UHGV virus genome: UHGV-0363730 | DNA: 22,197 nt | Strand: one strand, 5' to 3' | From: a virus | In this document: piece by piece, positions 21,866-22,002 of the stretch | Position numbering within the stretch: position 1 is the first letter of the stretch | Layout: each line of letters starts with the position of its first letter | Translations under genes and position numbers: made by a program | Notes under the pieces: model-generated | Told to the model about the DNA's origin: nothing | The model's input: only the letters and a program-made list of their open reading frames with translations | The model's database searches: none

Positions 21866-21909
21866 AAGAATAAAAAAATCCCGCAGTGATCGCGGACAGG
21901 AACTGCGGG
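21866..21909 (-). terminator. Minus-strand intrinsic terminator just downstream of the I stop
   Basis: Stem CCCGCAGT (21880-21887) / ACTGCGGG (21902-21909); on the minus strand the hairpin is followed by AUUUUUUU (plus A-run 21872-21878). No T-run on the plus side. Confidence 0.5.
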
Positions 21910-21974
21910 AGAGTTACGAAGATTAAGTGTAAGGAATTATTCTTATATCACGACAAAAAAATTAACGCAGAGAA

Positions 21975-22002
21975 ATTATACGCGCCACAGTCAGTTTGTG
22001 AA
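21975..22002 (-). promoter_or_regulatory. Candidate sigma70 promoter on the minus strand (-35 TTCACA, 16-bp spacer, -10 TATAAT)
   Basis: On the minus strand, TTCACA (plus 21997-22002) and consensus TATAAT (plus 21975-21980), with an AT-rich tract upstream; would fire leftward toward the terminator at 21866-21909. Confidence 0.4.

What the first reader, a model, noticed from the sequence alone, without database searches (positions are those of the whole stretch)
21866..22002. Candidate ~100-nt small RNA between I and the inverted I fragment
On the minus strand a near-consensus sigma70 promoter (-35 TTCACA, 16-bp spacer, -10 TATAAT, AT-rich upstream) lies ~100 nt upstream of a hairpin followed by U7, with no ORF between them. 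The unit sits exactly in the unique 213-bp spacer separating the two inverted I copies, so it may have been brought in by the rearrangement.
Basis: inference. Interest (0 to 1): 0.55.

Follow-up and report, generated by a model that had tools for sequence, protein, structure and literature searches.

The report
PasB-family prophage small RNA gene
The candidate is a real small-RNA gene, a diverged copy of the known Hfq-dependent prophage sRNA PasB/EcOnc22-24 that sits between tail genes I and J in about a third of complete E. coli genomes, and the nearby rearrangement did not bring it in.

Summary
On the minus strand there is a TTCACA-16-TATAAT promoter (22002..21975), no ORF, and a hairpin plus U7 (21910..21872) that ends 7 nt from the I stop codon.

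The 213-bp "spacer" is not unique. It is the native I-J intergenic region of lambdoid prophages. It is 100% identical over 220 nt to CFT073 and many other ExPEC genomes, and related sequence occurs in 1662 of 5426 complete E. coli genomes.

The unit is an allele of a known sRNA family:
- **PasB (EPEC E2348/69):** 83 nt, Northern-verified, Hfq-stabilised, 37 RIL-seq partners.
- **EcOnc22/23/24 (EHEC Sakai):** about 85 nt, bound by Hfq in CRAC, destabilised without hfq.

Both lie at the same I-J position on the antisense strand. They share the promoter block and the terminator with the window.

The window allele is only 73% identical to PasB across the mature RNA. The published PasB census (blastn word size 28) would therefore miss it. 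It is still exact in about 613 complete-genome records and is unannotated there.

The most likely function is a lysogen-expressed, Hfq-dependent, trans-acting base-pairing sRNA (a moron). Its targets are unknown.

The rearrangement junction (22079/22080) lies 77 bp upstream of the -35. I found it in no other sequence searched, and it removed J rather than adding the sRNA.

Overall this is a correct call on a known but poorly characterised family, of low to moderate interest.

The parts
21872..21968 (-). Predicted primary transcript of the PasB-family sRNA (97 nt, +1 G at 21968, 3' end in the U7 run). By homology to the published 83-nt PasB, the mature form would start near 21955.
   Evidence: Promoter geometry, fold, alignment to E2348/69 PasB coordinates. 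The exact 97-nt sequence is in about 613 complete-genome records.
21975..21980 (-). -10 hexamer TATAAT
   Evidence: Other alleles carry AATAAT, TATCAT or CATAAT at the same register.
21997..22002 (-). -35 hexamer TTCACA with a 16-nt spacer. It is near-consensus in this allele and degenerate in others (TTCTGT, TCCGGC).
22005..22020 (-). Conserved imperfect inverted repeat TCTGAA-N4-TTCACA just upstream of the -35. It is a candidate regulator-binding site. The core is CRP-like (TCTGA-N6-TCACA, 9/10) but is centred near -44.5.
   Evidence: Present in 154 of 165 terminator-anchored loci; most of the 11 without it are unrelated or 5'-truncated loci. It is more conserved than the -35 and -10. The regulator assignment is inference only.
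21936..21944 (-). AAG-AAU-AAU, three consecutive A-R-N triplets. Candidate Hfq distal-face binding motif.
   Evidence: All 32 alleles examined have 3-7 ARN triplets, located immediately 5' of the YUCC motif in the alleles aligned (A2). Shuffle p is about 0.04 for this allele and 0.001 or less for the E2348 type. The ARN/Hfq link comes from PMC4104026 (abstract).
21916..21935 (-). Single-stranded body UCCUUACACUUAAUCUUCGU. It contains an anti-Shine-Dalgarno-like UCCUUA and the family-conserved AAUCUU just upstream of the terminator. This is the candidate seed region.
   Evidence: Conserved columns in A2, partly high unpaired probability. Zhu et al. propose the PasB seed lies just upstream of the terminator.
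21872..21910 (-). Intrinsic terminator and Hfq-binding 3' module: stem 21910-21900 / 21891-21879, then U7 at 21878-21872.
   Evidence: The CCCGCAG/CUGCGGG stem is intact in 20 of 21 aligned alleles and is the only consensus structure, with no covariation. The PasB Northern probe AATCCCGCAGTGATCGCGGAGCT matches 21877-21899 at 20/23.
21184..21864 (+). Tail assembly gene I. [quoted passage not shown]
   Evidence: ORF list. Annotated 'tail assembly protein' in matching genomes.
21865..22079 (.). Native I-J intergenic segment, 100% identical to CFT073 and others. It is truncated at 22079, the foot of a hairpin that precedes J in intact prophages.
22078..22197 (-). Inverted copy of I codons (reverse complement of 21569-21688) running to the window end. 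The junction has a 2-nt microhomology (CC). It is not part of the sRNA unit.
   Evidence: The junction is absent from 5426 E. coli genomes, IMG/VR and JGI metagenomes.

Best explanation
Window 21872-22020 (minus strand) is an intact gene for a PasB-family small RNA, also described as EcOnc22-24. It is a moron-type cassette with its own promoter and intrinsic terminator, inserted between tail genes I and J of a lambdoid prophage and transcribed against the late operon.

**How it most likely works**
1. In the lysogen, sigma70 RNA polymerase starts near 21968. A regulator may assist by binding the conserved inverted repeat at 22005-22020.
2. Transcription stops at the hairpin-U7, 7 nt short of the I stop codon. 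The product is a non-coding RNA of about 85-97 nt.
3. The RNA is mostly unstructured 5' of the terminator.
4. Its terminator hairpin plus U7 tail and its AAG-AAU-AAU stretch bind Hfq.
5. Its single-stranded body (UCCUUACAC...AAUCUUCGU) base-pairs with 5'UTR or early coding regions of host and accessory mRNAs to change their translation or stability.

**Shown versus inferred**
- Shown here for this allele: the sequence anatomy, the conservation and the synteny.
- Shown only for homologues in EPEC and EHEC: transcription, size, Hfq binding and dependence, and mRNA partners.
- Inferred: transfer of those properties to this allele, the seed position, and the outcome of pairing.
For: **Anatomy**
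- The promoter is an 11/12 match and the best in 20 kb of the window. A terminator with U7 follows and there is no ORF.

**Homology and synteny**
- E2348/69 PasB (NC_011601 1466343..1466261, minus strand, 83 nt) lies between I (tail assembly protein) and gpJ. It aligns with the window through the promoter block, the first roughly 13 transcribed nt and the terminator.
- The PasB Northern probe matches the window at 20/23 on the expected strand.
- Sakai EcOnc22/23/24 lie in the J-I intergenic regions of prophages Sp15, Sp14 and Sp11, antisense to the tail genes, and align with the window.
- The offset between old and new Sakai coordinates (about +128) was calibrated on the 66-nt HnrS/EcOnc10. 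That places the Hfq-CRAC peak inside the sRNA body.

**Experimental properties of the homologues**
- PasB was verified by Northern blot. Its level falls in delta-hfq by log2FC -6.8 (activating) and -2.4 (non-activating).
- PasB has 37 unique RIL-seq partners, 30 of them CDS or 5'UTR. It is the second RNA in 99-100% of chimeras, and its longest U tract is 7.
- EcOnc22 gives a Northern band of about 85 nt and is destabilised in delta-hfq.

**Conservation**
- Related sequence is in 1662 of 5426 complete E. coli genomes.
- I found 31 RNA variants across 123 loci. All share the terminator, ARN triplets and AAUCUU, while their bodies vary.
- A J start lies upstream in 108 of 128 loci and I-like sequence downstream in 111 of 128, by crude pattern tests.
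Against: - There is no expression data for this exact allele or its host.
- The mature RNA is only 73% identical to PasB, and the divergence falls in the presumed target-binding body. Targets cannot be transferred from PasB.
- The predicted 97-nt transcript is longer than the 83-85 nt seen for homologues.
- No base-pair covariation supports any structure. The terminator stem simply does not vary.
- No function or validated target is published for any family member. EcOnc22 targets are listed as 'unknown' (PMC7873438), and no target motif was reported for PasB.
- There is no Rfam family to score against.
- The ARN enrichment is only marginal for this allele (p about 0.04).
Confidence: 0.8

Rival explanations
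1. The RNA acts mainly in cis. It is fully complementary to the I-J intergenic part of the late polycistronic mRNA. On induction, or on superinfection by a phage with the same allele, it would form a duplex of about 97 bp. That duplex could trigger RNase III cleavage and uncouple or dampen J (tail tip) expression. Conversely, the late mRNA could titrate the sRNA away at induction. Convergent transcription could also interfere with late-operon read-through.
For: - The orientation is always antisense to the tail operon, and the position is fixed between I and J.
- The cassette sits right after the I stop codon, 7 nt away.
- Many strains carry several lambdoid prophages that could cross-react, with up to 6 places per genome.
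Against: - The RNA does not overlap the I coding sequence or the J ribosome-binding site. The J start is about 140 nt or more beyond the sRNA 5' end in intact loci.
- PasB forms chimeras with 30 CDS or 5'UTR partners elsewhere in the genome, and only 0.5-2% of its chimeric fragments involve accessory-genome partners.
- An antisense-only role would not need Hfq stabilisation or ARN triplets.
- The body diverges quickly between alleles and between tandem copies, which fits changing trans seeds.
Confidence: 0.12
2. There is no functional RNA. The hairpin-U7 and the promoter-like hexamers are incidental features of a non-coding spacer, for example a remnant terminator or insulator between tail genes.
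For: - The total number of promoter-like sites in the window is no higher than chance.
- The terminator stem shows no covariation.
Against: - Homologous loci give discrete Hfq-dependent bands in two pathotypes.
- Promoter, terminator and upstream repeat are conserved together across diverged alleles, and within tandem arrays where each unit keeps all three.
- On the sense (+) strand the hairpin has no downstream U-run, so it is not a late-operon terminator.
Confidence: 0.05
3. The unit encodes a very small protein rather than a regulatory RNA.
For: None found.
Against: - The 97-nt transcript has no ATG. The only GTG is followed by a stop after one further codon (GUG-AUA-UAA), as read directly from the sequence.
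- No ORF of 20 aa or more lies within the unit.
- Indels among alleles are not in multiples of three.
Confidence: 0.01

Closest known systems
PasB (E2348CN_0006), prophage PP6 of EPEC O127:H6 E2348/69 (Pearl Mizrahi et al. 2021, PMC8550237; Zhu, Shabalina and Storz 2026 preprint, 10.64898/2026.05.13.724894)
   Same: - Same locus (I-J intergenic region) and the same antisense orientation.
- Same conserved upstream repeat, -35/-10 block and first transcribed bases.
- Same CCCGCAG...CUGCGGG-U7 terminator.
- ARN triplets followed by YUCCUU and AUCUU.
   Different: - Only 73% identity over the mature RNA, with indels in the body and in the terminator loop.
- blastn at word size 28 finds nothing, and word size 11 finds only the 25-nt terminator.
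- The allele therefore falls outside the published PasB variant set, which differs 'by only a few nucleotides'.
- Its host range leans to ExPEC (CFT073, S88, ATCC 25922).
- The -35 is closer to consensus than in some other alleles.
EcOnc22/23/24 of EHEC O157:H7 Sakai prophages Sp15 (Stx1), Sp14 and Sp11 (Tree et al. 2014, PMC4104026)
   Same: Same I-J position and strand, the same upstream repeat, the same terminator core, and a similar body motif (AAAAAUAACUCCAUAACGUUAAUCUUC).
   Different: - Different -35 (TCCGGC) and -10 (AATAAT), and a different 5' body.
- The papers read here do not state that EcOnc22-24 and PasB are equivalent. Table S6 of PMC8550237 lists EHEC homologues for PasA and PasD but none for PasB.
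Lambdoid-prophage sRNA morons at other sites: AgvB/AsxR (3' of PR'), HnrS/EcOnc10-12 (between lysis genes and terminase), svsR (3' end of cI), STnc100/PasD
   Same: They are prophage-borne, have their own promoter and intrinsic terminator, are Hfq-associated, and are expressed from the lysogen to regulate host genes.
   Different: - Different sequence, size and genomic slot.
- Rfam models for AgvB, AsxR and STnc100 do not hit this region at E-values up to 10.
- STnc100 is present elsewhere in the window, at 187-403.

Membership tests
PasB / EcOnc22-24 (I-J intergenic Hfq-dependent prophage sRNA) | Located in the intergenic region between tail assembly gene I and tail tip gene J of a lambdoid prophage, on the strand opposite to the tail genes. 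| tested here: met
   I ends at 21864 and the sRNA 3' end is at 21872 on the minus strand. The 220-nt stretch is identical to the CFT073 I-J intergenic region. J itself is missing from the window because of the junction at 22079/22080.
PasB / EcOnc22-24 (I-J intergenic Hfq-dependent prophage sRNA) | Sequence homology to the reference sRNA genes. | tested here: met
   Alignments A1 and A3 show an identical promoter block and terminator, with 73% identity over the mature RNA. The Northern probe matches at 20/23. Intermediate and mosaic alleles connect the types.
PasB / EcOnc22-24 (I-J intergenic Hfq-dependent prophage sRNA) | Own promoter, intrinsic terminator with a U tract of 4 or more, and no ORF. 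| tested here: met
   The U7 matches the 'longest U tract 7' recorded for PasB.
PasB / EcOnc22-24 (I-J intergenic Hfq-dependent prophage sRNA) | Discrete transcript of about 83-85 nt on Northern blot. | not testable with these tools
   Only a prediction is possible: 97 nt from the predicted +1, or about 84 nt if the 5' end matches the published PasB start.
PasB / EcOnc22-24 (I-J intergenic Hfq-dependent prophage sRNA) | Hfq binding and Hfq-dependent stability, with chimeras to mRNAs as the second RNA. | not testable with these tools
   Sequence proxies are present: a 3' hairpin with U7 and three ARN triplets. There is no experimental data for this allele.
Anti-sRNAs AgvB/AsxR (RF02702, RF02703) | 51-60 nt, conserved 3' region, encoded 3' of PR' in the moron site downstream of Q. 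| tested here: not met
   No Rfam match in 21600-22197 at E-values up to 10. The location is in the tail module, not downstream of Q (for the family's position).
HnrS (EcOnc10-12) | 66-nt sRNA between the lysis genes and terminase of EHEC/EPEC prophages. | tested here: not met
   The Sakai EcOnc10 locus lies between Rz/endopeptidase and the terminase small subunit. That is a different slot and a different sequence.
CRP-activated (class II) promoter | TGTGA-N6-TCACA site centred at -41.5. | tested here: inconclusive
   The core matches at 9/10 (TCTGA-ATATCT-TCACA, 22020-22005), but the centre is at about -44.5 relative to the predicted +1. This was scored by eye against the consensus, not with a PWM. 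Conservation of the repeat is shown.

The most novel reading that the evidence does not exclude
The I-J slot of lambdoid prophages may be a modular, fast-evolving sRNA cassette site. It would have a constant regulatory front end (upstream repeat plus promoter) and a constant Hfq/terminator back end, framing a swappable target-binding body.

On this reading the window (CFT073-type) allele has a different seed from PasB and EcOnc22. It would therefore control a different regulon, specific to ExPEC lineages.

The same logic would explain the tandem arrays of 2-4 diverged cassettes seen in some STEC prophages. If so, the published PasB census covers only about half of the family.
Probability: 0.35. 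Interest if true: 0.5.

Novelty: new member of a known kind. Interest (0 to 1): 0.3.

Why it matters
The call is useful mainly as annotation. An sRNA gene that RefSeq leaves unannotated sits in the tail module of prophages in about 31% of complete E. coli genomes.

The allele in this window is the form carried by CFT073, S88, ATCC 25922, ST1193-type and other ExPEC strains. No expression or target data for it turned up in the papers I could search.

Linking EcOnc22-24 (2014) to PasB (2021) and to this allele unifies three descriptions of one family. It also shows that word-size-28 BLAST censuses under-count the family: 956 genomes carry the E2348 type and 800 carry the window type.

If the diverged body changes target choice, different pathotypes would receive different regulatory inputs from otherwise similar prophages.

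Tried and rejected
- **Rfam.** Neither the gathering search nor the permissive search gave a match for the region. The only hits were spurious (PK-repZ at E = 0.16, queA at E = 3).
- **AgvB/AsxR.** Rejected. That family sits 3' of PR'.
- **svsR of prophage NC-SV.** Rejected. It is encoded at the 3' end of cI.
- **HnrS/EcOnc10-12.** Rejected. It sits in the lysis-terminase region and is 66 nt long.
- **Structure and covariation.** RNAalifold found only the invariant terminator stem. The 5' hairpin predicted for the window allele is not maintained in other alleles.
- **Species range.** An exact-pattern scan of GTDB species representatives hit only E. albertii, plus two short contigs labelled Asaia and Streptomyces that are probably contamination. 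This is consistent with restriction to Escherichia and Shigella.
- **Rearrangement junction.** I searched for it in E. coli genomes, IMG/VR and JGI metagenomes and found nothing. I cannot tell whether it is a real event or an assembly or amplification chimera.
- **PasB RIL-seq partners.** I tried to extract individual partner names from table S3, but the table is too large to page through within the look-up cap. Only summary statistics were obtained.
- **Literature search by sequence.** Strings from the window allele returned nothing.
- **Target prediction.** I did not attempt genome-wide target prediction because no host genome is available in the sandbox.

Full report
**1. Observation**

The features described are in the sequence. 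On the minus strand the promoter scan reports TTCACA, a 16-nt spacer and TATAAT at 22002..21975, an 11/12 match. This is the single best sigma70-like match in 20 kb of the window. The overall number of weaker promoter-like sites is at chance level, 11 found against 12.4 expected.

Downstream lies a G+C-rich hairpin followed by U7. RNAfold pairs 21910-21900 with 21891-21879, and the U-run is 21878-21872. With +1 at the G of 21968, the primary transcript would be 97 nt.

The transcript contains no ATG and no ORF of 20 aa or more. Gene I ends at 21864, only 7 nt from the RNA 3' end. On the + strand the hairpin is preceded by the A-run and has no U-run after it, so it terminates leftward transcription only.

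The 213-bp figure is also correct. The inverted arm 22078-22197 is 100% complementary to 21569-21688.

**2. What the "spacer" really is**

The stretch 21860-22079 is not unique. It is 100% identical over 220 nt to CFT073, S88, ATCC 25922, CE10, VR50 and many other genomes. Related sequence occurs in 1662 of 5426 complete E. coli genomes.

In CFT073 it is the first two thirds of a 343-bp intergenic region between the tail assembly gene (I) and gpJ. The closest relatives of the whole 22-kb window match up to 22079 and no further.

In a sample of 128 loci pulled from IMG/VR and genomes by a promoter-block pattern, crude pattern tests gave the following:
- A J start within about 190 nt upstream of the promoter block in 108 loci.
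- I-like sequence downstream in 111 loci.

The unit is therefore native to the I-J intergenic region. The rearrangement did not bring it in.

**3. Identity**

Rfam 15 has no family for it. The literature does.

*PasB.* Table S6 of Pearl Mizrahi et al. 2021 (PMC8550237) places PasB at NC_011601.1 1466343..1466261 (minus strand, 83 nt, prophage PP6). Its Northern probe is AATCCCGCAGTGATCGCGGAGCT. That locus lies between the tail assembly protein gene and gpJ, 6 nt beyond the I stop codon. It aligns with the window through the promoter block, the first transcribed bases and the terminator (A1). The probe matches window 21877-21899 at 20/23 on the expected strand.

*EcOnc22/23/24.* Table S2 of Tree et al. 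2014 (PMC4104026) lists these in Sakai prophages Sp15, Sp14 and Sp11. The Northern band is about 85 nt and the RNA is destabilised in delta-hfq. All three map to the J-I intergenic regions on the strand opposite to the tail genes and align with the window (A3).

The published Sakai coordinates are offset from the current RefSeq record by about 128 nt. I calibrated this on EcOnc10/HnrS, whose 66-nt promoter-to-terminator unit is recognisable in the current record. With that offset, the Hfq-CRAC peak falls inside the sRNA body.

*Other prophage sRNAs considered and rejected.*
- AgvB/AsxR, at the PR' moron site.
- svsR, at the 3' end of cI.
- HnrS, between the lysis genes and terminase.

**4. How this allele differs**

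Over the mature RNA the window allele is 73% identical to E2348/69 PasB. Substitutions and indels are concentrated in the body and the terminator loop.

With the 83-nt PasB as query, blastn at word size 28 finds nothing in the window. Word size 11 finds only the 25-nt terminator. Zhu, Shabalina and Storz (2026 preprint) used word size 28 with query coverage above 75% inside Escherichia, and they describe PasB variants as differing by only a few nucleotides. Their census would therefore not include this allele. That is my inference.

The counts are consistent with it:
- Megablast with the E2348 RNA finds 956 genomes, all at 90% identity or more. This is comparable to their 1,107 chromosomes.
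- The window RNA finds a largely separate set of 800 genomes. In 613 records the match is 99% or better, and no feature is annotated under the listed matches.

**5. Family anatomy**

I recovered 31 distinct RNA variants from 123 loci, and the window variant was the commonest at 39 loci. The only consensus structure is the terminator stem CCCGCAG/CUGCGGG. It is intact in 20 of 21 aligned alleles and shows no covariation, so the alignment gives no evidence for or against any further structure.

Conserved single-stranded elements are:
- A run of A-R-N triplets. The window has AAG-AAU-AAU at 21944-21936. All 32 alleles examined have 3-7 triplets, located just 5' of YUCC in the aligned alleles. Shuffle p is about 0.04 for the window allele and 0.001 or less for the E2348 type.
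- YUCCUUA, which resembles an anti-Shine-Dalgarno sequence.
- AAUCUU just upstream of the terminator. This is where Zhu et al. propose the PasB seed.

Upstream of the -35, the imperfect inverted repeat TCTGAA-N4-TTCACA (22020-22005) is present in 154 of 165 loci collected through the terminator alone. Most of the 11 without it are unrelated or 5'-truncated loci. The repeat is more conserved than the -35 or -10, which degenerate in the Sakai-type and other alleles.

Its core resembles a CRP site at 9/10, but it is centred near -44.5. I leave the regulator unassigned. PasB is more abundant in LB-type non-activating medium than in the activating medium, with 1820 against 258 chimeric fragments. 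That does not contradict catabolite control, but it does not show it either.

**6. Mechanism**

The best-supported reading is a lysogen-expressed, Hfq-dependent, trans-acting base-pairing sRNA carried as a moron in the tail module.

For PasB, the evidence is:
- Hfq-dependent abundance, with log2FC of -6.8 and -2.4 in delta-hfq.
- 37 unique RIL-seq partners, of which 30 are CDS or 5'UTR.
- Position as the second RNA in 99-100% of chimeras.
- A U7 tract.

For EcOnc22 there is Hfq cross-linking and hfq-dependent stability.

All of this is shown for homologues only. For the window allele, only the sequence features are shown. No target or phenotype is published for any family member.

The main rival is a cis-antisense role against the I-J part of the late mRNA. 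It is compatible with the fixed antisense position. However, the RNA overlaps neither the I coding sequence nor the J ribosome-binding site, and that rival does not explain the trans partners. The two roles are not mutually exclusive.

**7. The rearrangement**

The native intergenic sequence stops at 22079, at the foot of a hairpin that precedes J in intact prophages (CFT073 sequence). It then joins an inverted copy of I codons with a 2-nt microhomology (read).

The junction is absent from 5426 complete E. coli genomes, from IMG/VR and from JGI metagenomes. The inverted arm is 100% identical to its source, lies only about 390 nt from it, and runs to the window end. This pattern fits a chimeric or assembly artefact as well as a recent real event. 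I cannot decide between them. Either way, the sRNA gene keeps 77 bp of native sequence upstream of its -35 and looks intact.

**8. Novelty and score**

The finding is a correct call on a gene family that has been known since 2014 and 2021 but whose function is still unknown. The allele is a new, uncatalogued member rather than a new kind.

The most novel reading not excluded is that the I-J slot is a modular cassette site with swappable seeds. Support comes from the allele mosaicism and from tandem arrays of 2-4 diverged cassettes in related prophages. The 4-unit array is present in 67 complete genomes.

Interest for this window: 0.3.

Noticed in passing
L151 320-1235 (minus orientation); also L147 1-720, L145, L132, L136, L154, L167: Some prophages carry tandem arrays of 2-4 diverged PasB-like cassettes in the I-J intergenic region. 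Each cassette has its own TCTGA-N5-TTCACAYTT repeat, -10, variable body (AAUAA...YUCCUUAA) and terminator. Two terminator types occur: CCCGCAG/CUGCGGG and CUCCCGU/ACGGGAG. The 4-unit array is covered at 80% or more in 67 of 5426 complete E. coli genomes; the listed best matches are largely STEC, for example O91:H21 and O178:H19. The 2026 PasB census reports a minimum distance of 28 kb between copies, so these arrays appear to be undescribed.
   Followed up: partly
window 22078-22197, junction at 22079/22080: An inverted, 100% identical copy of I codons (reverse complement of 21569-21688) replaces the J-proximal part of the intergenic region, with a 2-nt microhomology at the junction. The junction was found in no other genome, viral contig or metagenome contig searched. 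It could be a real inversion or deletion, or an assembly or amplification chimera at a contig end.
   Followed up: partly
window 187-403 (+): Full-length match to Rfam STnc100 (RF02076, 150.6 bits, E = 5e-34). This is another prophage sRNA, said to be related to PasD. It lies at the left end of the window, upstream of the terminase genes.
   Followed up: no
window 22005-22020 (minus) and homologous positions in 154 loci: The imperfect inverted repeat TCTGAA-N4-TTCACA just upstream of the -35 is more conserved across alleles than the -35 and -10 hexamers. Its core is CRP-like (9/10) but centred near -44.5, and the half-sites also resemble Cra. No regulator is assigned.
   Followed up: partly
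L001 3218-3250 (CFT073); L004 about 1925-1960 (E2348/69); L129 1238-1265 (Sakai): Intact prophages have a G+C-rich hairpin followed by a T-rich run on the late-operon sense strand, between the sRNA promoter and the J start. It looks like an intrinsic terminator just before J. The hairpin sequence differs between allele groups, but its position is kept. The window's breakpoint sits at its foot.
   Followed up: no
L005 (546-nt contig labelled Asaia platycodi) and L038 (IMG/VR): An IS3-like element (TGAACCGCCCCGGGAATCCTGGAG...) is inserted in the spacer between the -35 and -10 of the sRNA promoter. The Asaia-labelled and Streptomyces-labelled (L007) contigs that carry this E. coli prophage sequence are probably contamination.
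   Followed up: no
Sakai NC_002695.2 versus the coordinates in Tree et al. 2014: The published EcOnc coordinates are offset by about +128 nt from the current RefSeq record, at least between 2.16 and 2.90 Mb. Anyone mapping the 2014 list onto the current genome needs this correction.
   Followed up: partly
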